Assembly (NCBI GenBank): GCA_963790825.1
Contig: CAWBPM010000001.1
Span: 1-55,514 of the forward strand
Direction: 5' to 3'
Length of the DNA: 55,514 bases
Source of the DNA: Candidatus Levyibacteriota bacterium
GTDB lineage: Bacteria > Patescibacteriota > Microgenomatia > Levybacterales > UBA12049
Of the stretch, positions 1 to 55,514 are shown one piece after another. Within the stretch, counting starts at the first letter, position 1; the number at the start of each line of letters is the position of its first letter. The notes below the pieces were generated by a model that saw nothing but the letters and a program-made list of their open reading frames with translations, ran no database searches and was not told the DNA's origin. Made by a program: the position numbers and the translations under genes.

Positions 1-2088
1 CGACCAGCTTGGTGCAGCAGTGACACCTCCCGATATCAGGCAGGAACCGATCGCTACATCCGAGAGTTCTCCCCAGGTATTTGTTCCCGATCCGTAGAGA
101 AGATCTCCGGTGGTAACGGTTGTCTGTCCTGTACCGCCGTAGAGTGTACCTATAGCACTTCCCTGCCAAGTACCAGTACCAATTGTCCCGACCGTTGTCA
201 GGGAGGAGGAGGTAACACCGGTTCCCAGGGTTGTTGAGGAGAGAACGCTGTTGCCGGCGATCTGGTAAGCACCGCTGACACTGTTAAGGTTACCCGAGTG
301 GTCAAGGGTAAAGACCGTAGTACCGGATGCACTGGCAGTCAGGATATTCTGGTTGCCGGTTTCATTAAGGACGGCAAGGGCTTGACCACTCACAGCATTT
401 GTAATATTTAATCTTGCTAGTGATATATTTGCTTGATTAATAGGGATGTTGGTTATGGTAAATTCGTTATCAAAATTTAAAGTATCTAGCGAACTAAACG
501 TATTTGACTCATTTTTTACTGTTATGCCGCCGCTTCCTCCAGATCCGCCATTATCATTTGCGCAATCCCATGAGTTGGTGGAACCGTTCCATTTTAAAAG
601 TTGTTGGTTAGAGCAGCCTTGAATAAGAGACAAGCCTCCAGCGCTAAACTCCATACCCGATGGAGAAGTAAGGGTAGAGCTTGTTCCTGAACTTGCCAGG
701 CTTACTGTAACTGTCGGGCTCCATCCCTCCCCTGTTAATCCGGTAATTGAAATGCCATTGCCAGAAGTTAGACCATAAACATAATCTCCTGTTGTGTCTG
801 GACCCAATGCTACCGAATCAGGACCAATTATTACATTACCAGTTCCATCAACACTAATAGCACCGGTAAGAGTAGTAAAGGTTGGGACCCCTGACGTACT
901 ACCAATAAGTACTTGACCGGGTGTCGGCGGCAAAGTCGCCTGGATGCTTCCCGTCCCATTACCATAGAGAACTCCGTTACTTGTCAGTGATGAAACGCCT
1001 GTCCCACCGTTTGAAACATTAATAATGCCACTCTTAACTGCACCAGCATCAACAGATCCAGTAGAATCTATCGTAATATTATTTGCTATATCAGAATCAC
1101 TCAAACAACTATCACATCCTCCCCTACTATAAACCGTTGCGAGAGTAGAGTTATCGCTAATTGTAAGTCCTGATATGCTAATATCCGATCCGGCAGATAA
1201 AGATAATGAGCCGGTACTTCCTTGCAAAGAGGTTACACCGGTTACACTGTTAACGGTACCTGTAGCGGTCGCACTGATCGTAGGAGTCTGACCGCCACTG
1301 ATACTAATTCCTGTTCCAGCTTTTAGTCCATAGATTAAATTTGCTGCAAAAACACTTCCTGTACCCGCATCTACTGTATGATTATCGGTAGACAATCCGG
1401 AGTTCAATAAAGCATTACCGTTAACTGTTAATGTTTTTTTAACAGCTACATCATCAAGAAAATCAACGTTTTTTTTAAAAATACTTGGCACCTGAACACT
1501 AAAGACTGGATCCTGGCTGATATTTTGCGCAGCCAACACAGCTTGATTTATATTACGTTCTATTTTTCCCCCTGAGAAATGATTTCCGGGTAGTATTTTT
1601 ACACCACCAATAACCGCAATAAGAGCCAAAAAACTAATAAAGCCCGATAGTAGATATATTCTATTTTTATTCGAGGGAGGAATAGACTGGACAGATTGTT
1701 GTTGCGTTAACTCTAACTCTGGTTCTTGTATTACCACCCAATCATGATCAGTTGTGGTAAAGAAATTTGTTGACTCGGAAGAAATAGACGGAGAGAAAAC
1801 AGAAGTTGTTGATCTGGGTTTATATTCTCCTTGATTAGGTATGGACACAAACGCAGCCTGTGATTGAGTTGTTCCTGATTCTCCAGTTTCTTTGGTCTGC
1901 TCGGGAATGGCTACTTGTTTTTTTTGCTTATTTTTTATTTGCTGAAGATCATTAGAACTATATCGCCTCTGATTTCCTATTGTTCGCTCCGGTACCAGAG
2001 AACCTGCTGCATCCCAGCGGCGAAGTGTTTTCGTCGAAACTCCTAAAAAAGTCGCGGCTTCTTGAATTGTCAGTTGTTTATCACTCAT
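1..2088 (-). CDS. Giant membrane-anchored fibre protein, N-terminal 696 codons only (ORF runs off the left edge): MerR/excisionase-type HTH, Ser/Thr/Gln-rich linker, one TM helix, Gly/Thr/Ser-rich tail-fibre-like ectodomain; paralog of 51458..54937
   Basis: Absent from the ORF track because it has no in-window stop. Hand translation of the reverse strand from the ATG (complement of 2086-2088) gives MSDKQLTIQEAATFLGVSTKTLRRWDAAGSLVPERTIGNQRRY. The absence of any listed minus-strand ORF ending here indicates the frame stays open to base 1. A TM helix IYLLSGFISFLALIAVIGGV is encoded at about 1600-1659. Later segments (SVQVPSIFKKNVDFL, AGTGISISGGQTPTIS) align with the 51458 product (VEIPSIFGGNVEFL, AGTGISVTAGQTPTIS). 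Confidence 0.8.
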   Translation of the reverse strand, partial: MSDKQLTIQEAATFLGVSTKTLRRWDAAGSLVPERTIGNQRRYSSNDLQQIKNKQKKQVAIPEQTKETGESGTTQSQAAFVSIPNQGEYKPRSTTSVFSPSISSESTNFFTTTDHDWVVIQEPELELTQQQSVQSIPPSNKNRIYLLSGFISFLALIAVIGGVKILPGNHFSGGKIERNINQAVLAAQNISQDPVFSVQVPSIFKKNVDFLDDVAVKKTLTVNGNALLNSGLSTDNHTVDAGTGSVFAANLIYGLKAGTGISISGGQTPTISATATGTVNSVTGVTSLQGSTGSLSLSAGSDISISGLTISDNSTLATVYSRGGCDSCLSDSDIANNITIDSTGSVDAGAVKSGIINVSNGGTGVSSLTSNGVLYGNGTGSIQATLPPTPGQVLIGSTSGVPTFTTLTGAISVDGTGNVIIGPDSVALGPDTTGDYVYGLTSGNGISITGLTGEGWSPTVTVSLASSGTSSTLTSPSGMEFSAGGLSLIQGCSNQQLLKWNGSTNSWDCANDNGGSGGSGGITVKNESNTFSSLDTLNFDNEFTITNIPINQANISLARLNITNAVSGQALAVLNETGNQNILTASASGTTVFTLDHSGNLNSVSGAYQIAGNSVLSSTTLGTGVTSSSLTTVGTIGTGTWQGSAIGTLYGGTGQTTVTTGDLLYGSGTNTWGELSDVAIGSCLISGGVTAAPSWS
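194..369. repeat. Inverted copy of the 176-nt core of the fibre C-terminal cassette (matches 54029..54204 and 54560..54735 in reverse complement)
   Basis: Base-by-base comparison of the reverse complement of 194..369 with both plus-strand copies. It has one private difference (gaccActcggg versus gaccGctcggg). At the two sites where the plus-strand copies differ from each other, it agrees with one copy at each site. In addition, bases 1..20 are the exact reverse complement of 54383..54402. Confidence 0.9.
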
Positions 2089-12909: not shown

Positions 12910-15900
12910 TTACTGATTTAATTTTTGTAAAAACCCGAATGTTTTCGCCAGATTATCAATGACTAGATTCAATGCTGCGGTTGTCGCTTTCGGCGTCGTA
13001 ACTACTGTGTCGAGAGATTTACCCAAATTTCCTGCCTTATCTTTGGATAGTGCTTGGAAATGATAAATCTTCGCCGGAGTAAGACCTGTGATAGTTACCG
13101 TATGATTTTCAGTTAAATTTGTATCCTGCTGGGTAGTTTGTCCGTACGTATTGCCTGTACCTTCGGCGTATTGAATTTGCGTCGTTCCTGGTTCATCGGT
13201 ATCCCACGTAATAACCAATTGGGCTTTTGCGTCTTGTCCGACACCGACAATTGTACTTTCAACATCCAAATTTAAAAGTTCCGGCGGCCTCAGATCGGCT
13301 GCCGTATGAATATGTGTCGGCTGGGCATCCGCTTCGTTCCCGGCTGCGTCTTTCCCTCGTATTTGAATCGTATAATCCGTACTGTCACGTAGGTTTTGTA
13401 GCACCATTTCATGCGTTTTTACCATTTGTAAAGTTATTTGGTCTTTAGCAGTGGCAGGTGCATCACTTGGATAATAGGTAATAATAGAGGTTACCGGTGC
13501 GTTAGTCGTCCATAGGATTCGAAGCGCTGCCGAAGGCAAACCGGCAATTTCCTGAATTTTCATGGCTGTTACTTTAGGAACGGGCAAGGTTGTGAAGGAG
13601 TAATCGTCGCCTGAGAATTGATTCCCTTCTTGGTCAAGACCAACAATTTGCAAATGATACGTTGTACCATCAGTCAAGTTATCCAAAAGAATTGTATCGA
13701 TCGTTTCCGACGTAGGAGTTGACTCGGTCTTCGTATTCCCATAGCTGGTAGTTAATCCATAATTAATATTTACGCTGGATGCGTTTTTAACGTCAAAAGA
13801 CACGTACGCACTATAGAGACTGATATTCGTAATTTTCACATTGGAAATAAACGGAGCAGCGTTAGTAGTAAATGTATATTCGTCGGATGTGCCCAAATTC
13901 CCATCCTCATCAGTCCAGAGTACTCTGTAGTAATACTCTGTCCCAGGCGTTAAACCGGTAAGAGTAATTTGATGGTTTGTTATTTGTTCTGATGAACCAA
14001 CTTCGTCTCCGTAATCTCCACTTTTAGTGCCGTATTTGACGAAGGAATTGGCTCCCCGACTCGTGGACCAGGAAATAATAGCTGTCTTCGTCTTAATTGT
14101 AGCCGACGGACTTGCGGTCATATCCGGCGACACCAGCCATTTACCGGTCGGATACATGGAAACTGTTTCCGACGGAGCAGAACAATTATTGGTAGAGTCA
14201 CAGGCTTTGACACAATAGTAATGTGTCTCTTGAATAATATTAGAATCAACAAACGATTTTCCGGTAGTCGACGCAAGATAACTAAAGTCACTTAGGTTAT
14301 CTGTGCAACTGGCGCTATCGCTAGTTGAACCATATACTTTATAAGTTGAGACTCCGGAACCGGTAGCAGTCGGTGGTTCCCAGGATAGAGCTAATTTCCA
14401 GCTGGAAACAGATTTAACCGAAATATCTGCAATATCCAAACTTCCCGGAATACCCGGGGCTGATGTATCAGCGGTAAAACTAACAGAAGAATAATTGTTA
14501 TAATCGATGTTTCCTGCTTCGTCCTTCGCTACGACATACATTATATTTTTCCCCGGTAGTGTCGCGTACGCGTCGGCTACCAGGTACGTAGTTGACAGAC
14601 CGATAGTATTAACATTTTGCGCAGTGGGCAATGCATTTACCGAATAGTAATACCGCAAACTACTCTGAACCCCATAATAAGACGCCGGCGGACTCCAGGA
14701 AAAAGCAAACGAATTAACCGTATTCGATGTCGGAGTAACTGTTAAGTTTTGCGGTCCTCCCGGAGAAGTCGAACTGTAATAGTAAGATATAGATTGATAA
14801 TTTGTAGCATAGTTTCCTGCATTATCCCTGGTTCGAAGATATAATGTGTTAACACCGGTTGTATAAGCAGAAACACTGGCAATTGAGGTGCTGGTTATCC
14901 CACAGGTGTCCACTGCTCCGCTTTGCCCTGTTTTATAACAATAATCTTGTATGCCAGACGCGCTGTCGGATGCGCCACTCCAATTGAAATTAAATAAGTT
15001 AACATTCGAATAACTTGACGGTGTAACAGTGAGTGTGGTCGGGTTAGTCGGCGAGTCGGAATCATAGCGATAGACAAACGGCGCTACGCTTGACGAAGAA
15101 ACGTTACCGGCATCGTCAACTGTTTTAATGAGCAAGTAATACGTATTACCGGAAGTTAAACTAGATGCGGTATAACTGGTCGTCGATTGCAGCGTCCCCG
15201 AAGCTGCCGGGTTCGCATTACTGTTGGTACCGAAATAAACATAATAGCCGGTAACACCGGAGCCGGTCGTGCCATCGGATGCACCACCTGTTGCTTCAGC
15301 TGCCGGCCAAGAGAAATAGGGACTCGAATAGTTATACCAATTATTGCTGGTTAAAGTCGCCGATTGCGTCGCCGTCGTGTAAGCTGAAAAATTGCTTGGA
15401 TTTGTAGGCGGTGCTGTATCAGAATAATATGTAAACGTATAACTACCTACAGTTCCTGAATAAACTCCGTCGCTTGACGTAAAGGCAAACTTTACCTGTA
15501 AATACCGAGCAGTTGGAGATGTGATTTTATCTGAATAAGTAACACCTGTGACTTTTTCTTGTGTCACTTGTGCCCAACTGGACCAAGTAGAATTATCTGA
15601 CGACGTTCTGGTATAGGCTGTAATTACCGTGTTTGCGCTTGGTGTAGCAGTATAGGATAAACCGCCGAATTTATAAACTGATGTTAAGTCATACGTTTGA
15701 GAAATGTATGTTCCACTGGTTTGGAATGCGCTGGTTGGAGTAGACATAACATAGGTGTATACTCCATCGCTAAATGTGTTCGTGCCGGGACCTGCAATAA
15801 CATAGATTTTGTTAACACCGTCACTGGCAGCTGCTCCTCCTTGGGAAATATTGGCGGGAGCATTTGTTATTGCTGTCCAGGTGTTTCCAGCAATTGAATA

Positions 15901-18900
15901 AGCATAACAATTTGCAACATTTCCTCCCCGGCAGGCGTAGAGTAAATCTCCACCGCTGTCAACCATAAACCCGTCGTTATAGACATTTGCACCTGACGGC
16001 AAATCTGCAACTACCGGGTCGCTCCAGGTATTACTTCCCGGAGTATAACGATAGAAAGACACAGTGTTATTTCCGCGTAAACCGTAAAGATATCCTCCCT
16101 TATAAATTAATTCCGCACCATAACTCATACTGCCCGGAGTAACAGCTCTTATAATCCAGCGGCTGCCTGCCGCTGCCTGCTTATCATATTCATAAAAAGC
16201 GGTGCTGCCTCCTGCCGGAACATAATAAATATAGCGGCTGCTGTCATAAACCATTGCTACTCCGGTATTTGGCATCACCGGCGGAGGATCCGTAGTCACC
16301 TCACTCCAGGCATCTGCGGCAATATCGTACATGAAAAACTTTTGTGTATACGTGTTACAAGTGGCATAGATCTGATTGGCAGTAGAGTCATATACTAACT
16401 TACCTCCAGTATAGAATCCACATGGAGCATCAGCCAAGCGCGTATCATCACCTGTTACCGGATTGTAACGGACAAACATATTGTCATAATTACCTCGAGT
16501 AATGTAATAATTATTTCCATCGCCTTTTATAATATCCGCACCATAGTTGAAGGTTCGATAATCAGTTCCCCAGAAAATTCCAGCGAATAATCCTATGTTC
16601 GGAATTTGCCAGGAATTACTGGCCGGATTATAGACATAGAAATTAGTATTATTTCCGCCTCTCAGAACATACAAGAGACCGTTGACTGCTCTCATAGTTG
16701 CTCCACTGGTTAAAGGTAACGGAGCATCTGCAAGTCTAGTCCAAGTACTGCTACCAAAATCATATTTATAGAGATATGGTTTTCCTGCAGCAGGAATGTA
16801 ATAAATTGCATTTGACACTGCATCATAACTTATCGTTGCCCCATCGTCATAGGCAGTAATCGGTAAATTTGACAGAACAGACCAAGTATTCGATGGAATA
16901 TCATAAGCTGAAAAGCCTGTGTTATCGTTACCGTTAACGCTACCTTGAATTGCATAAATTGTATTTTTACCGTCATAGGTTAAGTTTCCTCCAGTATAGA
17001 CCATGTTAGTTCCCTGATTCGTCGGAGCACCAAAAATAGTATTGGCAAGAGTAGTCCAAACATCATTTTGTGTATCATACCGCATAAGAGTATCATCGTT
17101 ATTCCCTTTAAGAGTGTAGATATAGCGGGAACCATCATATATTGATGCAGCTCCGTAATATACAGGTTGTGGGGCATCAGTTGCAGCAGCATCAGACCAA
17201 ACATCATTAGCGATATCATAGCGCCAAAACACCGCAGAATTATTGGCAGGAAAACCGTACAAATATCCGGGCGGCCCTTCGATTACATGACCGCCATAAT
17301 AAACATTGCCGGGAGCATTTGCTTTAGCGGTCCAAGTATCAGTGGTGATATTGTATTCATAAAAAGTATTGGTATTGTTACCCCTAAAAGTATATAGTTT
17401 GTTACTTGAGGCAACGTAAGCAAAGTGCCCGCCGTAATATATCCCCGCCGGAGGAAGTGATAAACGAGTTTGTTGCCAGAAACCGCTGGTAGTTGCCAAC
17501 TTAATTGTGTCATTGATCGTGCTGACAGCACTTGTTGTAGCTGTGGCAAAACTGCTGCTTCCTGAAATGCTTAGAATTTGACCGATAACACCTTTGTAAA
17601 TATAAGTAAACATAGATTTAGCAGCACTTACATTCCCTGATGCGTCTTTGGTTGCCAAAATCAAATAATAAGTACCGTTGGTCATTCCGCTGTTCACCAT
17701 ATATGTTGATGCCGACTGGAAATTGCCTGAAACTGTTGGATCGGCGTTTGAATTGGGACCAAAATAAACATAATAACCTGCCACACTCGTTTCCGAATCA
17801 CTGGCTCCACTCCAGGCAAAATAAGGATTCGTATAACCGTATATTCCATTACTTATCAGACTTACTCCACCGACTTGCTGAGAAGTCGCTGTGATAGAAG
17901 TCGGATTCGAAGGAGGATTTGTGTCTCCTGCATAGGTAATAGTAAAATCATCTAACCGCGGTGCCTGACTGAGGTCGCTGGATGCATTATAGTTTGCTTT
18001 TACTTTAATGTATCGATTTACCGCAGAAGCAATAGTGGTTCCACTTACTGTCTGCCATGCAGACCAATTTATCTTGTCCGGACTGGTACTTGTCTGAAAG
18101 CTGAGCGATGAATTACCTGGCACAGAAGAATCAGAAGTAAAAGAAGAAAAACTGTTTACATAAGTTAAATCGATCACATCACTGGTCCAGGTGGCTGTGG
18201 TATTCGGATAATTTGTCGTAGCGGGAGTATATTGGCTAACCCAAACAAGACTTTGGCCATATGATGCGTAGATGTTACCCGAACTGTCAATCTCTAAAGA
18301 CGCGCCATTATACGGCCCGATAGAATATGCATAAAGTGAAGAAAGATCCGGAAGTCTGCGCCAGGTGTTGGTAGCAATAGTATATTCCCAGAAATCAGTT
18401 TTATAATACCCTCCTAAAGCATAGATTTTCCCTCCGTAATACTGCATATCTGTTCCATAGTACGGACTAAACGGTACTGTACCGATCGTACTCCATGTAT
18501 TTGTGCCGATGTTGTATTTAAGAAATTTCGAACTTCCATTTCCCGGATAATAATAAATATAAATACCATCAGTTGTCAGACGGCCACCGGTATTCGCAGC
18601 TGTACCAGCAGGCAGATCTGCTGCTCCCGGATCATCCCAAGTATTACCCGAAATACTGTAACGCCAAAAAAGTAAGGTATTATTCCCTCTGGTGGCATAA
18701 ATATAATCACCCGTACCCGGATAGACTAAACTTGCCCCTCCGTTAACACCGGTAGGCGTGGTTGCAAGAGGCGTCCAAGTGTCACCTCCCGGATCGTATC
18801 TGGTAAAGGTACTTGCTCCACTTCCTGTTAAAAAGTAAAGCGAGCTGCCGGCTGTCGCCACTTTTACATCATCATTAAAATTCACCGGGGCAGTCGATAG

Positions 18901-20073
18901 AGCCGCCGACCAAGTGTTAGAGGATATTTGGTAACGGTACATTGTACCTGTGTTAGCACCGCGGGGGAAATAAATATAACCATTCAGATAAGCTAGATCC
19001 GAACCTGTACCCGGCGTATTAGGTAAATCAGCAACGCCTAAAAATCTATCGTTGGTATAGTCATATTTCCAGAAATCATATTGGCCGTTGCCGCGGAAAA
19101 CATAGATATAATTGTCCGACGAATTATAAACCAAACCTACATATTGCACGGCAACAGGCGTATTGGATACCGTTGTCCAGGTATCTGAAGCAATTGTATA
19201 TTTATAAAACGTTTGCGTTCCGCCTCCACGCGTCATATAGATAACGCCATTTACCACATCTGCGGACATATCGGTTGAAATGGTTGCCGGAATGGTAGAC
19301 GCAAGAGTGCTCCATGTACCAGAGGAAATCGTATATTTATAAAACGTTTGCGTACCGTTTCCCCTCGCAGTATAAAATGCTCCGCTGTAATAAATTAAAT
19401 GTGCTCCTGAGGAAATGCTTGCCGGTGTACTGGGCGCAACCGTCCAGGTATTTGAAGATGGATCATATTTCCAGAAATCGGATGTGCCTGCTCCTCTTAA
19501 GGCATAAATATACGTTCCATCCGTTCCAACCGACGCTCCTGCATAATCGAGATCCGGTAAAGTAGCCAAAGTTGTCCAGGAATTATTGATGATATCATAA
19601 CGTGTAAATACATTGCTGTATCCGCCAAAAATTGCATAAATATAATTCCCCAATACTACCATCCCTGCACCGGGGAAAGCCGAATGCGGCGCTGACGTTA
19701 AATTTTGCCAGCGGTTTTCACTAGGCAAATAACGATCAAATCGCTCATCATTATTGTGCAAGAGATAAATATTATTTCCATCACTAGTAATAGCTGCCTG
19801 ATCACTTAAGGTTAAATCCGGAGCCTTAAACGCATGCGGTCCCCAACTGCCGGCAGGCACCATGTTAACACTTCCTTGCTTGTTATCAGCTTCAGTACCA
19901 CTGAAATAACCTGTTTTAAAATCACTCTGAGAAGTAAAAACTTTTGAAGCGGCAAGAACTGATACAGGAGTAGAGAGAAAAAAGAACAGAATAATAAGAA
20001 TTACTATAACAAAATTATTTACATGTAAGAAGCCAGAATTTATTCTTATGGGATGGGCAGTTTTTCTTTTCAT
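12910..20073 (-). CDS. Giant (2387 aa) surface protein: N-terminal signal/anchor, two arrays of Kelch-like beta-propeller repeats, two beta-sandwich modules, and about nine FN3-like domains
   Basis: At least 22 hand-counted copies of the motif [FY]x[KRE]Y[DNT]xxx[ND]xW, for example FYKYTISSGTWSTL and FWKYDPSSNTWTVA. FN3-like units such as GYYVYFGTNSNANP...GNTYYLLIKTVDDAGNVS and LTGLTPGTEYYYRV. The stop lies 1 nt before the ABC ATPase start codon. Confidence 0.9.
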   Translation of the reverse strand: MKRKTAHPIRINSGFLHVNNFVIVILIILFFFLSTPVSVLAASKVFTSQSDFKTGYFSGTEADNKQGSVNMVPAGSWGPHAFKAPDLTLSDQAAITSDGNNIYLLHNNDERFDRYLPSENRWQNLTSAPHSAFPGAGMVVLGNYIYAIFGGYSNVFTRYDIINNSWTTLATLPDLDYAGASVGTDGTYIYALRGAGTSDFWKYDPSSNTWTVAPSTPASISSGAHLIYYSGAFYTARGNGTQTFYKYTISSGTWSTLASTIPATISTDMSADVVNGVIYMTRGGGTQTFYKYTIASDTWTTVSNTPVAVQYVGLVYNSSDNYIYVFRGNGQYDFWKYDYTNDRFLGVADLPNTPGTGSDLAYLNGYIYFPRGANTGTMYRYQISSNTWSAALSTAPVNFNDDVKVATAGSSLYFLTGSGASTFTRYDPGGDTWTPLATTPTGVNGGASLVYPGTGDYIYATRGNNTLLFWRYSISGNTWDDPGAADLPAGTAANTGGRLTTDGIYIYYYPGNGSSKFLKYNIGTNTWSTIGTVPFSPYYGTDMQYYGGKIYALGGYYKTDFWEYTIATNTWRRLPDLSSLYAYSIGPYNGASLEIDSSGNIYASYGQSLVWVSQYTPATTNYPNTTATWTSDVIDLTYVNSFSSFTSDSSVPGNSSLSFQTSTSPDKINWSAWQTVSGTTIASAVNRYIKVKANYNASSDLSQAPRLDDFTITYAGDTNPPSNPTSITATSQQVGGVSLISNGIYGYTNPYFAWSGASDSETSVAGYYVYFGPNSNADPTVSGNFQSASTYMVNSGMTNGTYYLILATKDASGNVSAAKSMFTYIYKGVIGQILSISGSSSFATATTSAVSTINDTIKLATTSGFWQQTRLSLPPAGIYYGGHFAYVASSNKLYTFRGNNTNTFYEYNITTDTWTAKANAPGNVYYGGHVIEGPPGYLYGFPANNSAVFWRYDIANDVWSDAAATDAPQPVYYGAASIYDGSRYIYTLKGNNDDTLMRYDTQNDVWTTLANTIFGAPTNQGTNMVYTGGNLTYDGKNTIYAIQGSVNGNDNTGFSAYDIPSNTWSVLSNLPITAYDDGATISYDAVSNAIYYIPAAGKPYLYKYDFGSSTWTRLADAPLPLTSGATMRAVNGLLYVLRGGNNTNFYVYNPASNSWQIPNIGLFAGIFWGTDYRTFNYGADIIKGDGNNYYITRGNYDNMFVRYNPVTGDDTRLADAPCGFYTGGKLVYDSTANQIYATCNTYTQKFFMYDIAADAWSEVTTDPPPVMPNTGVAMVYDSSRYIYYVPAGGSTAFYEYDKQAAAGSRWIIRAVTPGSMSYGAELIYKGGYLYGLRGNNTVSFYRYTPGSNTWSDPVVADLPSGANVYNDGFMVDSGGDLLYACRGGNVANCYAYSIAGNTWTAITNAPANISQGGAAASDGVNKIYVIAGPGTNTFSDGVYTYVMSTPTSAFQTSGTYISQTYDLTSVYKFGGLSYTATPSANTVITAYTRTSSDNSTWSSWAQVTQEKVTGVTYSDKITSPTARYLQVKFAFTSSDGVYSGTVGSYTFTYYSDTAPPTNPSNFSAYTTATQSATLTSNNWYNYSSPYFSWPAAEATGGASDGTTGSGVTGYYVYFGTNSNANPAASGTLQSTTSYTASSLTSGNTYYLLIKTVDDAGNVSSSSVAPFVYRYDSDSPTNPTTLTVTPSSYSNVNLFNFNWSGASDSASGIQDYCYKTGQSGAVDTCGITSTSIASVSAYTTGVNTLYLRTRDNAGNYATNYQSISYYYSSTSPGGPQNLTVTPTSNTVNSFAFSWSPPASYYGVQSSLRYYYSVNALPTAQNVNTIGLSTTYLVADAYATLPGKNIMYVVAKDEAGNIDYNNYSSVSFTADTSAPGIPGSLDIADISVKSVSSWKLALSWEPPTATGSGVSTYKVYGSTSDSASCTDNLSDFSYLASTTGKSFVDSNIIQETHYYCVKACDSTNNCSAPSETVSMYPTGKWLVSPDMTASPSATIKTKTAIISWSTSRGANSFVKYGTKSGDYGDEVGSSEQITNHQITLTGLTPGTEYYYRVLWTDEDGNLGTSDEYTFTTNAAPFISNVKITNISLYSAYVSFDVKNASSVNINYGLTTSYGNTKTESTPTSETIDTILLDNLTDGTTYHLQIVGLDQEGNQFSGDDYSFTTLPVPKVTAMKIQEIAGLPSAALRILWTTNAPVTSIITYYPSDAPATAKDQITLQMVKTHEMVLQNLRDSTDYTIQIRGKDAAGNEADAQPTHIHTAADLRPPELLNLDVESTIVGVGQDAKAQLVITWDTDEPGTTQIQYAEGTGNTYGQTTQQDTNLTENHTVTITGLTPAKIYHFQALSKDKAGNLGKSLDTVVTTPKATTAALNLVIDNLAKTFGFLQKLNQ

Positions 20074-40135: not shown

Positions 40136-43100
40136 CTATATAACGAAGTTAATAATTTTACCGGGAATATAGACAATTTTTTTAACCGTTTTTTTTCTGA
40201 GATAGCGTGATACACCTTCCTGGATACTTGCTAACTCTTCTATCTTTTTTTGATTTGACAGCTCGTTTACTTCTGTCATCAACGTTCCTCTCAGCTTTCC
40301 ATTAATCTGTATCGCCATCGTCACAGTAGATTTTTTAAGAGCCTTCTCGTCAAAAGATGGCCAAACGCTGGTGTGGATCGAAAACTTCTCTCCTAGCCGC
40401 TCCCAGAGCTCTTCAGCTATATGCGGAGAGAAGGGCGCAATCAGTTGCAAAAAAGTTTTTGCTTCTTCATGGTTAATGCTGTCTTCTTTTGCGAGAAAAT
40501 TGTACCAGGACATTAATTTCGCAATTGCTGTATTAAAGCGCAGCGCCTCTATATCTTCAGTCACACCTTTTATCGTTTCGTTTTGCATCAATATCCCCTT
40601 CTGACTCGAACTAATTTCATAAGAGATATTTCGGGTTTCGAACAGTTTCCATACTCTCTTTAAAAACCTACTCATAGCTTCAATCCCACTGTCTTTAAAG
40701 TTTCCTTCCTCGCTAAATGGACCTAAGAACATTAAATATGTCCGAAGTGCGTCTGCCCCAAATTTTTTAATGTACAAATCCGGAGTGACAATGTTTCCCT
40801 TACTCTTACTCATCTTAGCTCCTTCCTTAATAATCAAACCATGCGCGTAAAAACGGGTAAACGGTTCCTCAAACGTTATTAAACCAAGGCCGTGAAAAAC
40901 CATTGTCAAAAATCGTGCGTATAAAAGATGCAGCACTGCATGCTCAGCCCCGCCAATACATATATTCACCGGTAACCATTTTTTTACCCGCTCCCTATCA
41001 AATACTTCACTATCTATATCAGTTGAGGTATAACGAAAGAAGTACCAGGCACTATCAAGAAACGTATCTGAAACATCGGTTTCACGACGGGCCATTTCAT
41101 GACACTCAGGGCACTTCGTTTCATAAAAGCTGGAATAATGATCAAGCGGCGCCCGTCCTGTCCCAAGCGGTTTATAATCCTCAATGTAAGGAAGCGTAAC
41201 AGGAAGATTTTCCTCAGGATACCAGCCCGCACTATTCCAGTCTTTTGTTTTTAACCCCTGTTGACTTAGCCACCCTTTGTTTTGTTTTGCACAATTTTCA
41301 CAGTAAATCATCGGGATCGGTGGTCCCCAATAACGCTGCCGTGAAATTAACCAATCGCGCAAGTGATATGTCGTTTTCCGCTGTCCAATTCCCTTTCCTT
41401 CAAGAGATTCAATAACTTTTCCAAGTGTCTCTGGAATAAACAAACCATTCCACTCTTCTGAATTAACGATCACACCTTCCCCTATATAAGGCTCATACCC
41501 CATCATGAGAAAATCGGCTTTATCATTCCAGCGCAAATTTAATCCTTTTTTAAGAGCAACATCTCTTTTTTGCTTGCAAAGCATATCCCTGCTCATTGTC
41601 CAAATCGGAAGAGTTTCAAATTCTTTTAGTTCAAATACGGTTTTAAAGGTATACTTATCTTCGTAAGGTTCTGCTTGACTTAACCATTCAAATTTACCAT
41701 TCTCTTTTAACCTTAAAGTAATAAAATCTATATAAATATCTTGCTTTGTAGCCTGGAAATAATATTTAGCATTTTTATCATCGGGAAACATATTTGATAT
41801 TGTAAAACCCTTTTCTTTAAGCCTCTCCTTCCACCAGTCCGTATCCTCTTCAAAGATAAAGAGATCTAAATCTTCATTCTCTCTAAATTGTTTCCCGACT
41901 TGTATAGCAACTGCCCAACCACCCCAAATGGCAATTTTCTTACCTGTTTTTTTTGCTGTCTTTAATATGTCAATTAAAACTTCTTTATGAAGATTAGTTC
42001 TTTTTTCATAGTAAGATTTTGCATTTTCATCCACATACTCTCTTTGAGGCAGAATTACAGGTTTAATCGGCAAATTGAATTTCTTCGCGAATTCAAAGTC
42101 GCGTTCGTCGTGCCCGGGAACTGCCATAATCGCACCAGTACCGAAGTCCATCAATACATAATCAGATATCCAGACAGGAATTAGTTCATGATTGACGGGA
42201 TTCTCGGCATACAAACCGGTAAACACTCCAGTTTTTTCTTTTTCCTCTCGTCTTTCTTCACTGGACTTTTGTTTGCTCAGCAAAATATATTTCTCCAGCT
42301 TTTCTCTATCTATTTCTTTACCTTTTGATATGGTTTGAAGTATTTCTCCAACTGCCGGATGCTCTGGAGAAAGGACTAAAAATGCTGCGCCGAATAATGT
42401 ATCCGGCCTGGTCGTAAAAACTTTTATTTTGAATTTTGAATTTTGAATTTTGAATTCTATTTCCGCCCCATCCTTCTTGCCAATCCAAGCCCGTTGGGCA
42501 GTTTTTACTTTTTCAGTCCAATTAATATGGTCTAGATTATGCAGAAGTTTATCTGCATAATTGGTAGTTCTGAAAAACCACTGTTCCAGATCTCTTTTTT
42601 CTACCTCAGTCCCGCATCGCTCACAAACCCCGACAGTTACCTCATTTAATTTTTCTTCATTCGCTTTGGATTTTGTAAGCACTTGCTCATCTGATAAAAC
42701 AGTTTTGCATGATGGACAAAAATTCACCGGAGCTTTCTTTCGGTATGCCAATCCTGCCTTAAAAAGCTCTGTGAAAATCCATTGCGTCCAGCGATAATAC
42801 CCGGGCTTCCATGTTTCAACTGTTCGCGACCAATCAAACGAATTACCAATCGCATGCATCTGGCGATAAAAATTCTCTTCGGATTTTTTCGCTTGCTCCA
42901 TTGGATGACTGCCAATTTTTAATGCGTAGTTTTCTGAGTGAATTCCAAATCCATCAAGACCAATTGGTTCAAAAACATCATTTCCTCTCATCCTCATAAA
43001 ACGACCATAGACGTCTGGTCCGGTCTGAGCAAACACATTTCCTACATGTAAACCTTCGGCTGAAGGGTAAGGAAACATCATAAGATTATAAAACGGCTTT

Positions 43101-51457: not shown

Positions 51458-54400
51458 ATGCTGCCCTATCTAAATAATCAAGAAACGTACTCAATTCAGG
51501 ATGCCGCTAATTTTCTCGGGATTTCGCCGCAGACTCTTCGTAGGCTCGAAGAACGAGGTATTTTGATTCCGGAGCGGACAGAAGGAAATCATCGTAGGTA
51601 CACACAGGAAGCTTTAGCTACTTACAAAAAAAATAAAAAAAGAGTTGGGACATCTACTTTGATAACTCCACAAGTACGTAATTTTGGAAGTGAGGCAACC
51701 GCTACAATTAGCAACACATCTTCACAACCTGGTATACAAATCATTTCCCCTACTCAACCCATACAGAAACAACCATCTTTAAATACTGTAAGTCAAATAT
51801 CTAATCAGCCAGTACCATCGGTAACCGATCAGCTGAGAAATATTATAAAGTTTGGTAAACCGCAAGCAGATCTTGTTCAGGAAATTGAAAGTCCCTTCCC
51901 CCTTGAAACGAATGGTTACGAAGTAATAGAGAACCCTGAGCAGAGTCAGCCAAAATCCCATGGTTTCCCTAAAAAACCGTCTATTATTTTCAGTGGAGTA
52001 TTAGCTGTTATCTTACTGATCTTCTTCAGCTTGTTATTCTTTAATCGAAATTCCTCGCTAAAAACCTCAACTACAACAAGCCAAACAAATAATAGCAAGT
52101 ACCAAAATATGTATTCAGGGAAAAAACCACTTACTTCAGATCTTGTTTTTAAAGTAGAAATTCCAAGTATATTTGGTGGTAATGTAGAATTCTTGCAAAA
52201 CCTTACCGTTGATAAAAATCTCACTGTAAAAGGTAAAGCAATTTTTAATAGCGGAATTTCTACTAATAACCAAAATATCGATGCGGGAAATGGGACGATT
52301 ACTGCGAGTAATGTGTTGTATGGGATTAAAGCAGGAACTGGAATATCAGTTACTGCAGGCCAAACTCCAACCATCTCAAATTCCGGGGTTACATCTCTAC
52401 AAAACCAGACAGGAAGCTTGCAATTAACTGCGGGATCTGGAATTAGTATTTCAGGCTTAACTATTAGCGCTACTGGTGCTAATTCTTCAAGTTTATCAAG
52501 TTCATATTGGCAACAATCAGGAAACTCTCTTTTCCCTACTACTTTATCAAATGATATTTTAATTGGCGGGAATACTTTGTCTTCTGCCTTATTTTCCGTA
52601 TCTGGAACGACCGGTAATGTAGGAGTATCAGGCACAGTAAATTTTAGTGGTTTAAACGCTTCATCGCCTGTTTTTACCGATGCGTCAAAAAACTTAACAA
52701 ATACAGGAATACTGGACATCGGACACGGCGGTACCGGACAAACTAGTTTTTCATCAAATGCTGTTTTGTTTGGTAATGGTACAGGACCACTTAATTCCAC
52801 GTCTCCACCAACCGCCGGCCAAGTATTGATGGGCAATTTGTCCGGAGTCCCAACATTTACCACCCTCACCGGTGGTATTAGCGTTGATGGAGCAGGTAAT
52901 GTTTCAATAGGATCACACGTTGTCACATTAGGTCCGAATACTACTGGAAACTATCAATCTGGAACAACTGCCGGGAATGGGATATCAGTTAGTGGAACTC
53001 CTGATGCGGGTTGGAGTCCTACGATAGCTATTAATCTTACTTCCTCCGGAGTCAGTAGTAGCACCAGTGCAAATTCAGGATTAGAATCTACCGCTTCTGG
53101 ACTTTCCCTTTTACGTGGATGCGGTAACGGACAAATCTTAAAGTGGGATGCAGACTTAGATCTTTGGGAATGTAATAACGATGCGGGTGCTGGATCAAAT
53201 GCAATTATCAATGTAACCGGCAACAGCTACAGTTCAATTGATACTAGTACTCTTAATTTTTCGAATGATTTCTCGCTCAACGAATCTCCTCTCGGTCAAA
53301 CCAATATAGCGATTGACTACGCTACTTCATATATTACAAGAAGTAACCAGAACGAAACAATTAGTGGTGTTTGGAATTTTAGTAATGGAATAGGAATTGG
53401 CACCACTACTCCTGGAGCTCAACTAAATATTAGTAGCGCAAGTACCGGCAAAGCTCTTGCTATTTTTAATGAAATAGGAGACCAAAATATTCTGACTGCT
53501 TCAAGTTCTGGCAACACTGTTTTTACCATCGATAATACGGGAGCTATCATAACCGGCAGTTATCAAGGAACAACTATTGCAGCTCAATATGGCGGTACCG
53601 GACAGTCCAGCTATACTGCCGGAGATCTCCTTTACGCTACCGGAGCGACTAGTTTAGGTAAACTCTCTGCTGGATCTGGTAATAACGGTAGGGTTCTAAC
53701 TGTTGTCGCCGGCCTACCGGTCTGGGCTTCAGTTTCCGGAGGAGTAGGCGGACTCTGTACTGATTGTGTTATTAATGATCCAAGTTCTAATGCCTTCAAT
53801 ACAATTACTCCAACTGCGAGCAACGTGACCGGCCTCTCAGTCGCTCAAGCATCAGGAGGCAATGTTGATATTTTCAATGTCACTAATAATGGAGGAGGTA
53901 CAACATATCTACAAGTAGCAAGTAATGGCAATATTCTTCTGCCTAATTCCTTCCTTGGTATCGGTACCACCTCACCCATCAGTCTTCTAGATACCGAAGG
54001 AAAAGTAACCGGTAAAGCCTTAGTCTCGCTTAATGAAACCGGCAACCAGAATATCCTGACTGCCAGTGCATCCGGTACTACGGTCTTTACCCTTGACCGC
54101 TCGGGTAACCTTAACAGTGTCAGCGGTGCTTACCAGATCGCCGGTAACAGCGTTCTCTCCTCAACAACCCTGGGAACCGGTGTTACCTCCTCCTCCCTGA
54201 CAACAGTCGGAACACTCACCTCCGGTACCTGGAACGCAACACTTATCACCAGTCAGTACGGCGGTACAGGATTCAACAATAGTGCAGCTGCCCAATACGC
54301 TCTCCCGTACTACTCGGCAACCGGAGTCTTAGGCGGAACTTTGGCAGTCGGAACAACCGGACAATGTCTGGTTGGCAATACCACTGCTGCACCAAGCTGG

Positions 54401-54937
54401 TCGTCTTGTACCGGACTGGGCACCAATTACTTCCAGAGAAATACCACTACCCTCTCTCCGGCAACAGCCAGCGATTCACTCCTCCTGGCTGACTCGGGAA
54501 CTACGACTAACTTCAGGCTGGAAGTCAACGGGAAACAAACCGGTAAAGCCTTAGTCTCGCTTAATGAAACCGGCAACCAGAATATCCTGACTGCCAGTGC
54601 ATCCGGTACTACGGTCTTTACCCTTGACCGCTCGGGTAACCTTAACAGTGTCAGCGGTGCTTACCAGATCGCCGGCAACAGCGTTCTCTCCTCAACAACC
54701 CTGGGAACCGGTGTTACTTCCTCCTCCCTGACAACAGTCGGAACACTCACCTCCGGTACCTGGAACGCAACACTTATCACCAGTCAGTACGGCGGTACAG
54801 GATTCAACAATAGTGCAGCTGCCCAATACGCTCTCCCGTACTACTCGGCAACCGGAGTCTTAGGCGGAACTTTGGCAGTCGGAACAACCGGACAATGTCT
54901 GGTTGGCAATTCCAATGGACAAGTGCCACAAACATGA
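51458..54937 (+). CDS. Giant (at least 1159 aa) membrane protein: MerR/excisionase-type HTH, low-complexity linker, TM helix, tail-fibre-like ectodomain; the C-terminus appears artificially or recombinationally truncated
   Basis: YSIQDAANFLGISPQTLRRLEERGILIPERTEGNHRRY. TM helix IIFSGVLAVILLIFFSLLFF at about 51980-52050. Fibre motifs IGIGTTTPGAQLNISS and LGIGTTSPISLLDTEG. Repeated modules of the form GKAL..NE.G.QNILTAS.SG.TVFT.D and YGGTG. The last 9 codons (SNGQVPQT plus stop) are antisense to a glycosyltransferase gene. Confidence 0.85.
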   Translation: MLPYLNNQETYSIQDAANFLGISPQTLRRLEERGILIPERTEGNHRRYTQEALATYKKNKKRVGTSTLITPQVRNFGSEATATISNTSSQPGIQIISPTQPIQKQPSLNTVSQISNQPVPSVTDQLRNIIKFGKPQADLVQEIESPFPLETNGYEVIENPEQSQPKSHGFPKKPSIIFSGVLAVILLIFFSLLFFNRNSSLKTSTTTSQTNNSKYQNMYSGKKPLTSDLVFKVEIPSIFGGNVEFLQNLTVDKNLTVKGKAIFNSGISTNNQNIDAGNGTITASNVLYGIKAGTGISVTAGQTPTISNSGVTSLQNQTGSLQLTAGSGISISGLTISATGANSSSLSSSYWQQSGNSLFPTTLSNDILIGGNTLSSALFSVSGTTGNVGVSGTVNFSGLNASSPVFTDASKNLTNTGILDIGHGGTGQTSFSSNAVLFGNGTGPLNSTSPPTAGQVLMGNLSGVPTFTTLTGGISVDGAGNVSIGSHVVTLGPNTTGNYQSGTTAGNGISVSGTPDAGWSPTIAINLTSSGVSSSTSANSGLESTASGLSLLRGCGNGQILKWDADLDLWECNNDAGAGSNAIINVTGNSYSSIDTSTLNFSNDFSLNESPLGQTNIAIDYATSYITRSNQNETISGVWNFSNGIGIGTTTPGAQLNISSASTGKALAIFNEIGDQNILTASSSGNTVFTIDNTGAIITGSYQGTTIAAQYGGTGQSSYTAGDLLYATGATSLGKLSAGSGNNGRVLTVVAGLPVWASVSGGVGGLCTDCVINDPSSNAFNTITPTASNVTGLSVAQASGGNVDIFNVTNNGGGTTYLQVASNGNILLPNSFLGIGTTSPISLLDTEGKVTGKALVSLNETGNQNILTASASGTTVFTLDRSGNLNSVSGAYQIAGNSVLSSTTLGTGVTSSSLTTVGTLTSGTWNATLITSQYGGTGFNNSAAAQYALPYYSATGVLGGTLAVGTTGQCLVGNTTAAPSWSSCTGLGTNYFQRNTTTLSPATASDSLLLADSGTTTNFRLEVNGKQTGKALVSLNETGNQNILTASASGTTVFTLDRSGNLNSVSGAYQIAGNSVLSSTTLGTGVTSSSLTTVGTLTSGTWNATLITSQYGGTGFNNSAAAQYALPYYSATGVLGGTLAVGTTGQCLVGNSNGQVPQT
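54007..54379 (+). repeat. Direct repeat copy 1 of the 373-nt fibre C-terminal cassette
   Basis: Base-by-base identical to 54538..54910 except at 54145 (T versus C) and 54187 (C versus T), both synonymous. The offset of 531 nt keeps the reading frame. Confidence 0.95.
54538..54910 (+). repeat. Direct repeat copy 2 of the 373-nt fibre C-terminal cassette, ending at the breakpoint
   Basis: See copy 1. After 54910 the similarity to the sequence following copy 1 (accactgctgcaccaagctgg...) stops abruptly. Confidence 0.95.
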
Positions 54938-55514
54938 ACGGTAAAAAGCATATAGTCACCCCGTAAGCATGATAGTTAACAGCAATAACAACCAGCAAGC
55001 CCGTCAGGAAGGTCTTCATTTTGTTCCAAGAACCGGCCTGATCATTGATCCTGTGCGCGCAATAAAGCGATGCCAGGGCCAAGGCAGGAAGAACAGCATA
55101 CGGTCGAAATTCAAAAGAATGGAATACCAAATTCTGATTAAGGGCCATGATCATAAACGCAACGAAATACCCTACCCACGAACGGAAATAATAATGACCA
55201 ACTTTATATAACAGCCAAAAGCCAATAATAGTTATAAGAATATGCGGGATCGCCAACCCCCATTTATTCATGCCAAACCAATGAATAAAAAAATAATTCA
55301 ACAAATATTCCCCTGGGAAAGTGGAATGATCCCCGTAGGTTTGATGTAGCCAGAAAGGTTTAAAAGCTCCTTGCATGCAATGGAATTGATAAACCTCGTC
55401 ACCCAATAGCTCCCTCCTGCCTAACTTCATAAATCTTAAATACAACCCATAACAAGAAATAAGCAGTGCCACGATCGCGGGCATATTCTTCTTAAAGGCA
55501 AATGGAAATTTGAG
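54911..55514 (-). pseudogene. N-terminal fragment of a GT-C-fold (ArnT/PMT-like, GT39/GT83-type) membrane glycosyltransferase, truncated at 54910/54911; the 5' end may extend off-window
   Basis: Polytopic hydrophobic sequence with a first-loop LLGDEVYQ (acidic DE motif) and STFPGEYLLNYFFIHWFG. The frame is still open upstream of ATG 55484 to the window edge. Only about 200 aa are present, whereas such enzymes are usually more than 400 aa. The ORF tail PDIVRLFRLPKFRLRLRL... is antisense to the fibre cassette. Confidence 0.5.

What the first reader, a model, noticed from the sequence alone, without database searches (positions are those of the whole stretch)
194..369. Inverted near-identical cassette links the two edge genes, indicating gene conversion and allowing tip swapping by inversion
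The 176 nt at 194..369 are the reverse complement of 54029..54204 and 54560..54735, with only 1-2 differences. At the two sites where the plus-strand copies differ, the inverted copy matches one copy at each site. This mosaic pattern is expected from gene conversion. Bases 1..20 also match 54383..54402 exactly in reverse complement, although the sequence between these blocks has diverged. Homologous recombination between these inverted repeats would invert about 54 kb. Because the repeats lie inside the two genes, it would exchange their distal C-terminal tips. This is reminiscent of invertible tail-fibre tips in phages, but no invertase is visible here.
Basis: partly seen in the sequence, partly recalled or inferred. 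Interest (0 to 1): 0.65.

Follow-up and report, generated by a model that had tools for sequence, protein, structure and literature searches.

The report
Shared repeat module in fibre genes
The inverted 176-base "cassette" is real, but it is one of at least 14 near-identical copies of a repeat module shared by four giant surface-fibre genes of a tiny uncultured (Levybacteria) bacterium; ordinary homologous recombination keeps the copies alike, and nothing found here points to a programmed inversion switch.

Summary
Window 194-369 is the reverse complement of 54029-54204 and 54560-54735, with 2 differences each.

The window is a whole contig (C1) of a 4-contig, 1.46-Mb Levybacteria genome. The cassette is not a 3-copy feature: the genome has 28 matches, 14 of them full-length at 98% identity or more. 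They lie in tandem arrays of 531-nt and 579-nt units in four paralogous MerR-HTH/membrane-anchored fibre genes. Three contig ends, including the window's left end, break inside these arrays.

In gene 1 the cassette starts a patch of at least 355 nt. This patch is GC3-rich like the arrays (0.52, against 0.28 in the gene head). It begins inside a homologous but diverged module. Third-codon identity jumps from 0.2-0.5 to about 1.0. That is a gene-conversion or recombination tract running from the arrays into gene 1.

RecA is present. No invertase, other recombinase or reverse transcriptase lies near any of these genes. The 53.6 kb between the copies is housekeeping DNA (ATP synthase, LeuRS, ArgRS, MreB).

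Inversion is mechanically possible but has no support, and it could not be tested because no reads or close relatives were available. Gene 2's "tip" is a junction that truncates two genes.

Verdict: ordinary concerted evolution in a repeat family.

The parts
194..369 (-). Cassette copy in gene 1. It comprises the 3' part of module H (LNETGNQNILTASASGTTVFTLDHSGNL) plus module A (NSVSGAYQIAGNSVLSSTTLGTGVTSSSLTTVG).
   Evidence: It is 100% identical to C2:744526-744701 and 98-99% identical to 12 other full copies.
15..369 (-). Full recombination tract seen in gene 1 (modules H-A-B3). It is array-type, GC3-rich sequence grafted onto the native head.
   Evidence: There are 5 mismatches in 355 nt against C2:747227-747581. 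GC3 is 0.52 here and 0.28 in the gene 1 head. The upstream boundary at 369/370 lies inside a homologous H-like module (GQALAV|LNETG against GKALVS|LNETG).
1..22 (-). Contig tip: a 22-mer (coding TAAPSWS) shared exactly with the 531-nt units. Positions 1-14 no longer match the C2 H-A-B3 copy.
   Evidence: There are exact 22-nt matches to C1:54382-54403 and to 10 places in C2 and C4. Mismatch positions are listed.
1..2088 (-). Gene 1. It consists of a MerR-type HTH, a TM helix and a fibre ectodomain. 696 codons are seen, and the C-terminus runs off the contig end.
   Evidence: PF00376 MerR, 3.7e-11. One search shows that the window is the whole contig.
51458..54937 (+). Gene 2, a paralogue of gene 1 (1159 aa). 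It has a native AT-rich head (aa 1-847) followed by 1.7 array units.
   Evidence: The heads are 51% identical at the amino-acid level. GC3 is 0.29 in the head and 0.53 in the array part.
53999..54529 (+). Array unit 1 of gene 2 (531 nt, modules H-A-B1-C1). It contains cassette copy 54029-54204.
   Evidence: Direct repeat D1. It is 99% identical to the C4 and C2 units. Module map.
54530..54917 (+). Array unit 2 of gene 2, truncated after module B1. It contains cassette copy 54560-54735.
54804..55514 (-). Fragment of a PMT_2-type membrane glycosyltransferase gene. Its last 37 codons are the antisense of the repeat unit. The junction at about 54917/54918 truncates both this gene and gene 2.
   Evidence: PF13231 match at 8.8e-07 covering residues 75-199. 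tblastn and the junction view are.

Best explanation
The 176-nt block is part of a modular coding repeat: the end of module H plus module A. This repeat builds the extracellular shafts of at least four paralogous fibre genes in this Levybacteria genome. Each gene encodes a MerR-type HTH, a TM helix and a giant fibre.

The modules are combined into 531-nt (H-A-B1-C1), 579-nt (H-D) and other units. These units form young tandem arrays that are 98-100% identical. The arrays occur in gene 2, in a >=3431-aa gene at the right end of contig C2, and in a ~3400-aa gene at the left end of contig C4.

Gene 1 and gene 2 have old, diverged, AT-rich heads. Their distal parts are array-type, GC3-rich DNA. 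In gene 1 the identity starts abruptly inside a homologous H-like module and runs to the contig end.

The most likely mechanism is RecA-dependent homologous recombination among the copies: gene conversion or crossover between loci, plus unequal exchange within arrays. This recently overwrote or replaced the distal part of gene 1, and earlier that of gene 2, with array sequence, and it keeps all copies nearly identical (concerted evolution).

The inverted orientation only reflects that genes 1 and 2 lie on opposite strands. The contig ends there because the assembler could not resolve the repeat.

Shown here: copy number, identity profile, tract boundaries, composition jump, reticulate variants, presence of RecA, and absence of nearby recombinases or a reverse transcriptase.

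Inferred: the recombination mechanism itself, its direction (array to gene 1, from composition), and its recency.
For: -: the window is the whole contig C1.
- 28 matches in the genome, 14 full length at >=98%.
- the copies sit in tandem arrays at C2:743.4-751.0 kb (contig end at 751017) and C4:1-7000 (contig start).
- module maps show H joined to A, D or a, and A joined to B1 or B3.
- gene 1's upstream flank is unique, and its downstream flank is shared only with C2:747581. Core sites 71 and 117 show all four haplotypes among the 14 copies.
- the gene 1 and gene 2 heads are 51% identical in amino acids, with third-position identity of 0.2-0.5. In the cassette this is 0.97-1.0. Identical codons at same-amino-acid positions are 56/58 inside and 100/252 outside.
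- GC3 is 0.52-0.53 in the cassette and array, 0.28-0.29 in the two heads, and 0.35 genome-wide.
- 5 mismatches in 355 nt between C1:15-369 and C2:747227-747581.
- RecA is present.
- a complete Levybacteria genome of another genus (G024) has several paralogous fibre genes but no DNA block of >=90% identity between them. The identity here is therefore recent and lineage-specific, not a family-wide constraint.
- H and A-B modules hit relatives independently, which fits modular evolution.
Against: - No reads were available, so neither the copy-number structure nor the contig tip could be verified independently.
- The four-gamete evidence rests on a single pair of sites, and recurrent mutation could mimic it.
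- The composition jump could equally reflect horizontal acquisition of the array modules followed by spread, or GC-biased conversion. Direction is therefore inferred, not shown.
- The 3' end of the tract in gene 1 is not seen because the contig ends.
- The C4 array carries many single-base insertions, so parts of this assembly are of low quality.
Confidence: 0.75

Rival explanations
1. Recombination between the inverted cassettes recurrently flips the 53.6-kb interior. Because both gene heads and their promoters lie inside the segment, each flip would swap the distal fibre parts of genes 1 and 2. This would be a RecA-dependent phase-variation switch of the Campylobacter fetus sap type.
For: - The geometry is correct: the heads point outward and the inverted copies lie within both reading frames.
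- 176-204 nt of near-identity is a workable substrate for RecA, and RecA is present.
- The left contig break is at the repeat.
Against: - The interior is core housekeeping DNA: the ATP synthase operon, LeuRS, ArgRS, MreB, NDK and ComEC.
- No invertase or other recombinase is nearby.
- The cassette has at least 11 other full copies in other genes, so this pair is not special.
- The right contig end is not at the repeat. The contig exits the array into a 597-nt stub, so C1 is not the contig one expects for a flip-flop segment bounded by its repeats.
- Gene 2's 'tip' is a 67-aa truncated unit without the C-terminal chaperone-type domain that the C2 and C4 giants carry.
- No orientation data could be obtained.
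Confidence: 0.05
2. The extent of identity at the window's left tip is an assembly effect. The last few hundred bases of contig C1 would then have been extended with reads that belong to the C2 or C4 arrays. The real gene 1 would share only a shorter stretch with the cassette.
For: - The block lies within 369 nt of a contig end.
- The tip changes partner twice: 15-369 resembles C2:747227, and 1-22 resembles the 531-nt units.
- The assembly has low-quality, indel-rich array sequence in C4 and a suspicious junction that truncates two genes at 54917/8.
Against: - The join is in frame and sits inside a module that gene 1 shares at protein level. It continues into a module (B3) that fits the canonical family motif.
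- C1:15-369 differs from the C2 copy at 5 positions, as expected for a separate locus.
- A graph path can switch only where the true sequence already shares at least k identical bases, so a substantial identical stretch must be real.
Confidence: 0.12
3. A dedicated diversification system produces the pattern: a diversity-generating retroelement, or a shufflon / Gin-type site-specific system.
For: - CPR genomes are known to be rich in DGRs (own knowledge).
- Repeated near-identical blocks occur in surface-protein genes.
- The neighbouring gene 46373-51313 carries integrase-type SAM-like domains.
Against: - The genome has no RVT_1 reverse transcriptase.
- The differences between copies are A/G and C/T at three sites, not adenine-specific.
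- The only Phage_integrase catalytic domains are at C2:503 kb and C4:68.7 kb, and the resolvase-type domains are at C4:161-168 kb and C2:187 kb. None is near an array.
- No integrase catalytic domain was found for the 46373-51313 protein.
Confidence: 0.02

Closest known systems
Concerted evolution of DNA-identical tandem repeats in bacterial surface proteins and between paralogues. Examples are the Rib/alpha-C repeats of group B streptococci, the SasG/Aap repeats, and tufA/tufB-type interlocus gene conversion (own knowledge).
   Same: The coding repeats are nearly identical at synonymous sites. A patch of identity is embedded in diverged paralogues. The process depends on the general recombination machinery. 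Such repeats break assemblies.
   Different: Here the repeats are combinatorial: sub-modules H, A, a, B1, B3, C1, C2 and D are joined in several orders. They are shared by four genes that carry a cytoplasmic MerR-type HTH head. They are also compositionally distinct (GC3 about 0.2 higher) from the rest of the genome.
Campylobacter fetus sap locus: RecA-dependent inversion between oppositely oriented S-layer gene homologues that share a conserved segment (Dworkin and Blaser, 1996-1997; own knowledge, not read here).
   Same: Oppositely oriented surface-protein paralogues share a conserved block of a few hundred bases. Homologous recombination, not site-specific recombination, would be the mechanism.
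   Different: In C. fetus a small segment of about 6 kb carries the single promoter and inverts among silent cassettes, and both orientations have been demonstrated. Here the segment is 53.6 kb of housekeeping genes, both genes have their own heads, and no orientation variants were observed.
Invertible tail-fibre tip switches of phages Mu (Gin/G segment) and P1 (Cin/C segment), and the R64 shufflon (Rci) (own knowledge).
   Same: The idea is the same: alternative C-terminal fibre parts are exchanged by inversion between inverted repeats inside the coding region.
   Different: Those systems use a dedicated adjacent recombinase and short (19-34 bp) crossover sites around a segment of a few kb. 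None of these features is present here.
Mycoplasma genitalium MgPa/MgPar and Neisseria pilE/pilS segmental gene conversion (own knowledge).
   Same: RecA-dependent transfer of segments between an expressed surface-protein gene and dispersed partial copies yields mosaic genes.
   Different: Those systems have silent, promoter-less archives of variable sequence flanked by conserved sequence. Here the shared segments are nearly invariant, so exchange homogenises more than it diversifies.
Gene conversion between two giant fibre genes in another Levybacteria genome
   Same: It concerns the same protein family and the same phenomenon: a block of a few hundred bases identical between paralogous giant fibre genes.
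   Different: That case involved two neighbouring genes and one block. Here there is a multi-copy module family across four genes on three contigs, including an inverted pair.

Membership tests
Interlocus gene conversion / concerted evolution of paralogous repeats | A sharply bounded patch of near-identity inside otherwise diverged homologous sequence | tested here: met
   Identity is ~99% over 194-369 (98.6% over 15-369 against C2). The flanks are at baseline, about 50-60% nucleotide identity.
Interlocus gene conversion / concerted evolution of paralogous repeats | Synonymous sites homogenised, so identity is not explained by protein-level selection | tested here: met
   Third-position identity is 0.97-1.0 inside the patch and 0.2-0.5 outside. 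Identical codons are 56/58 inside and 100/252 outside.
Interlocus gene conversion / concerted evolution of paralogous repeats | Reticulate (non-tree-like) distribution of variants among copies | tested here: inconclusive
   Core sites 71 and 117 show all four haplotypes among the 14 copies, and the His/Arg variant occurs in both H-A and H-D units. Only one informative pair of sites is available.
Interlocus gene conversion / concerted evolution of paralogous repeats | Homologous recombination machinery present | tested here: met
   There are two RecA (PF00154) matches, at C3:349869-350645 and C2:1685-2323.
Site-specific invertible fibre-tip switch (Gin/Cin/Hin type) | Serine invertase gene adjacent to the invertible segment | tested here: not met
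   No resolvase domain is in the window. The four genomic matches are 500-590-aa proteins at C4:161-168 kb and C2:187 kb.
Site-specific invertible fibre-tip switch (Gin/Cin/Hin type) | A short segment of a few kb that carries alternative C-terminal exons, bounded by short crossover sites | tested here: not met
   The segment is 53.6 kb of housekeeping genes. The repeats are 176-204-nt coding modules present at least 14 times.
Site-specific invertible fibre-tip switch (Gin/Cin/Hin type) | Both orientations present in a population | not testable with these tools
   No sequencing runs were listed for three different stretches.
Shufflon (Rci tyrosine recombinase) | Adjacent tyrosine recombinase with a catalytic domain | tested here: not met
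   PF00589 matches only at C2:503 kb and C4:68.7 kb. The neighbouring 1646-aa protein matched only N-terminal SAM-like domains.
RecA-dependent inversion between inverted surface-protein paralogues (C. fetus sap type) | Oppositely oriented paralogues that share a conserved recombination block | tested here: met
RecA-dependent inversion between inverted surface-protein paralogues (C. fetus sap type) | Observed alternative orientations / a single promoter serving several silent copies | not testable with these tools
   No reads and no close relatives were available. Both genes have their own N-terminal heads.
Diversity-generating retroelement | Reverse transcriptase plus a template/variable repeat pair that differs at adenines | tested here: not met
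   The genome has no RVT_1 match. The differences are A/G, C/T and C/T.

The most novel reading that the evidence does not exclude
The near-invariant H and A modules may act as portable homology anchors. RecA would use them to reshuffle the variable modules (B1, B3, C1, C2, D) and the whole distal shafts among the four MerR-headed fibre genes, including by inversion between oppositely oriented genes. A 1.5-Mb CPR episymbiont would then have a recombinational system for varying its attachment fibres without any dedicated recombinase. The GC3 excess of the arrays would be the footprint of frequent GC-biased conversion.
Probability: 0.12. Interest if true: 0.6.

Novelty: new member of a known kind. 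Interest (0 to 1): 0.25.

Why it matters
Practical value. This repeat family is why the genome assembly breaks at three contig ends. Gene 1, and possibly gene 2, are heads of giant fibre genes whose tails probably lie on contigs C4 and C2. Anyone annotating or comparing these MerR-headed fibres should know that their lengths and tips in this assembly are not reliable.

Biological value. The case documents very recent amplification and inter-gene homogenisation of fibre modules in a CPR bacterium, with a clear compositional signature. That is a useful, though unsurprising, data point on how the surface apparatus of these episymbionts evolves. If long reads were to show alternative junctions, it would become a case of recombinational surface variation in CPR.

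Tried and rejected
1. Read-level test of orientation. The look-up of sequencing runs listed no run for three different stretches, so read laying could not be used.

2. Other assemblies or strains.
- An exact 32-mer of the cassette had no hit in metagenome contigs.
- Exact-protein look-ups of gene 2 and of the gene next to gene 1 found nothing.
- A protein-guided scan of metagenome contigs gave only relatives at 38-40% identity.
- The 40 nearest species genomes held no member of the same genus; the best match was 39% identical.
No synteny or junction comparison was therefore possible.

3. Generality. In the complete Levybacteria genome G024, the paralogous fibre genes share no DNA block of >=90% identity. 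This rejects the idea that the identity is a family-wide constraint.

4. DGR, invertase and shufflon readings were rejected.

5. Structure of the 184-aa unit. AlphaFold2 with a 20-row alignment gave mean pLDDT 60 and pTM 0.37. That is too poor to use, so no fold search was made. Pfam, PHROGs and PDB sequence searches hit only the N-terminal MerR HTH.

6. A BLAST-based collection of ungapped 388-nt blocks recovered only 7 copies because tandem HSPs merged. The 14-copy comparison was used instead.

7. Literature searches for CPR giant-protein repeats and for the C. fetus sap system returned nothing directly useful. Comparisons with known systems therefore rest on my own knowledge.
Full report
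**Observation.** Window 194-369 is the reverse complement of 54029-54204 and 54560-54735. Each right-hand copy differs from the left copy at exactly two positions (98.9% identity). The looser block is 184-387 (204 nt, ~95%). Bases 1-22 match 54382-54403 exactly in reverse complement. Chance is excluded (E about 1e-85 within the genome). That pattern is tree-like and does not by itself indicate conversion.

The window is an entire contig, C1, of a 4-contig, 1.46-Mb genome. Earlier notes of this scan call it Levybacteria, a CPR/Patescibacteria lineage. The cassette has 28 matches in the genome. Fourteen are full length at 98% identity or more: three in C1, four in C2:744.5-751.0 kb and seven in C4:0.4-5.5 kb.
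- C2 is 751,017 bp long, and its copies run to its very end.
- C4's copies begin at its first bases.
- So three contig ends (C1-left, C2-right, C4-left) break inside one repeat family.
- The C2 end encodes a >=3431-aa open frame whose N-terminus is off the contig.
- The C4 start encodes a ~3400-aa frame, interrupted by frameshifts, whose N-terminus is also off the contig.
- Both end in similar C-terminal regions.
- Gene 1 (window 2088..1, minus strand; 696 codons) has the opposite defect: a complete head and no tail.

**Anatomy of the repeat.** Translation and motif mapping show a combinatorial set of modules:
- H: ...GKALVSLNETGNQNILTASASGTTVFTLD[H/R]SGNL
- A: NSVSGAYQIAGNSVLSSTTLGTGVTSSSLTTVG
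- a: a shorter variant of A
- B1, B3, C1, C2 and D

They are joined as H-A-B1-C1 (531 nt), H-D (579 nt), H-A-B1-C2, a-B1-C1 and a single H-A-B3.
- Gene 1 is: unique head, then H-A-B3, then the contig end.
- Gene 2 is: unique head, then H-A-B1-C1, then H-A-B1, then a stop.

Outside this genome, H-like and A-B-like segments hit many CPR fibre proteins independently of one another. They are therefore old protein modules. Only their DNA-level identity here is young.

**Evidence for recent recombination.** Genes 1 and 2 are old paralogues. Their heads share 51% amino-acid identity, and third-codon-position identity is 0.2-0.5, which is saturated. In the cassette windows, third-position identity is 0.97-1.0. 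Among positions with the same amino acid, 56 of 58 codons are identical inside the cassette, against 100 of 252 upstream.

The upstream edge of identity in gene 1 (369/370) falls inside a module that is homologous at protein level (GQALAV|LNETG against GKALVS|LNETG) but diverged in DNA. This is the signature of a homology-dependent conversion or crossover tract, not of an insertion.

Downstream, gene 1 stays 98.6% identical (5 mismatches in 355 nt) to the single H-A-B3 unit of the C2 giant (C2:747227-747581). All other copies switch to B1 directly after the cassette.

Across the 14 copies, core sites 71 and 117 occur in all four combinations, and the His/Arg variant of H occurs in both H-A and H-D units. 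This points to exchange among copies, although it rests on few sites.

The composition suggests a direction. The cassette and array have GC3 of 0.52-0.53. The two gene heads have 0.28-0.29, and the genome-wide value is 0.35. This confirms an earlier first-reader note. The distal parts of genes 1 and 2 are therefore array-type DNA joined to native heads. RecA is encoded.

In a complete Levybacteria genome of another genus (G024), several paralogous fibre genes, some on opposite strands, share no DNA block of 90% identity or more. The identity here is thus a recent, lineage-specific event.

**The inversion idea.** Both heads lie inside the segment and point outward, so an exchange between the inverted copies would flip 53.6 kb and swap what lies distal to the cassette. 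Nothing marks this as a programmed or recurrent event:
- The interior holds the ATP synthase operon, LeuRS, ArgRS, MreB, NDK, ComEC/ComEA, a two-component pair, a sortase and other ordinary genes.
- Resolvase-type domains occur only at C4:161-168 kb and C2:187 kb, in proteins of 500-590 aa.
- Integrase catalytic domains occur only at C2:503 kb and C4:68.7 kb.
- There is no reverse transcriptase.
- The pair is not special, because eleven further full copies exist.

Gene 2's distal end is not a functional tip. Array homology stops at about 54917. This junction is either a rearrangement scar or a chimeric join.

A tidy alternative topology is that genes 1 and 2 are the two missing heads of the C4 and C2 giants. 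The orientations of the open contig ends would fit the order rc(C4)-C1-rc(C2). This cannot be decided here.

Orientation variants could not be tested. No sequencing runs were listed, and no near relatives or alternative assemblies were retrievable.

**Assembly caveats.** The C4 array carries scattered single-base insertions relative to clean units, which look like unpolished long-read consensus. Its frameshifts are probably errors. The C1 tip changes partner twice within 369 nt. I give about 12% to the possibility that the extent of identity at the tip is inflated by assembly. Against that, the join is in frame, lies in a homologous module, and the tip differs from the C2 copy at five sites.

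**Comparison with known systems.** The best fit is ordinary concerted evolution and interlocus gene conversion of DNA-identical repeats in bacterial surface proteins (own knowledge).

It would not work like the Gin/Cin/Hin or shufflon switches, whose defining features (an adjacent recombinase, short crossover sites, a small segment) were tested here and not met.

**Verdict.** Inversion-driven tip swapping is unsupported and untested. The feature is a new instance of a known kind and is of modest interest. Its main value is that it explains the assembly breaks and warns that fibre gene lengths and tips in this assembly are unreliable.

Noticed in passing
window 54880-54940 (junction ~54917/54918) and 54804-55514: One breakpoint truncates both gene 2 and a convergent PMT_2-type glycosyltransferase gene, which continues as 37 codons of antisense repeat. 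The contig then ends 597 nt later inside that glycosyltransferase gene. This is either a rearrangement scar or a chimeric join.
   Followed up: partly
genome contig C4:1-7000: The fibre array at the C4 start contains many single-base insertions and a few longer inserts relative to clean 531-nt units. They break the frame into at least 5 ORFs. This looks like unpolished long-read consensus, not pseudogenisation.
   Followed up: partly
window 1-400 and 53999-54917; C2:743.9-751.0 kb: The repeat arrays have GC3 of 0.47-0.55, against 0.28-0.29 in the heads of the same genes and 0.35 genome-wide. Possible causes are foreign origin of the modules or GC-biased gene conversion in a frequently recombining array.
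   Followed up: partly
genome C3:349869-350645 and C2:1685-2323: A 1.46-Mb CPR genome has two strong RecA (PF00154) matches. The second covers only profile positions 50-262 and lies close to the left end of contig C2.
   Followed up: no
window 40136-43228 (-): The LeuRS carries an inserted domain (residues ~418-573) that matches the aminoglycoside-2''-adenylyltransferase / nucleotidyltransferase families (PF10706, 2e-09).
   Followed up: no
window 46373-51313 (+): A 1646-aa protein directly upstream of gene 2 has two N-terminal integrase-type SAM-like domains and a Peptidase_G2 / intramolecular-chaperone match, with no integrase catalytic domain found. It is a second kind of fibre with a DNA-binding head.
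   Followed up: no
window 12910-20073 (-): A 2387-aa protein has Kelch repeats and FN3 domains. Its DNA contains diverged internal repeats (repeat finder families D2 and D3 at 18380-19512).
   Followed up: no
genome C3:418266-418543 and C4:239554-239844: The right ends of contigs C3 and C4 share a 291-nt, 90%-identical inverted match in a gene encoding KYTLILDLSQTEEELLKNMH... This is another contig break caused by a paralogue. C2-left and C3-left both end inside penicillin-binding-protein-like genes.
   Followed up: no
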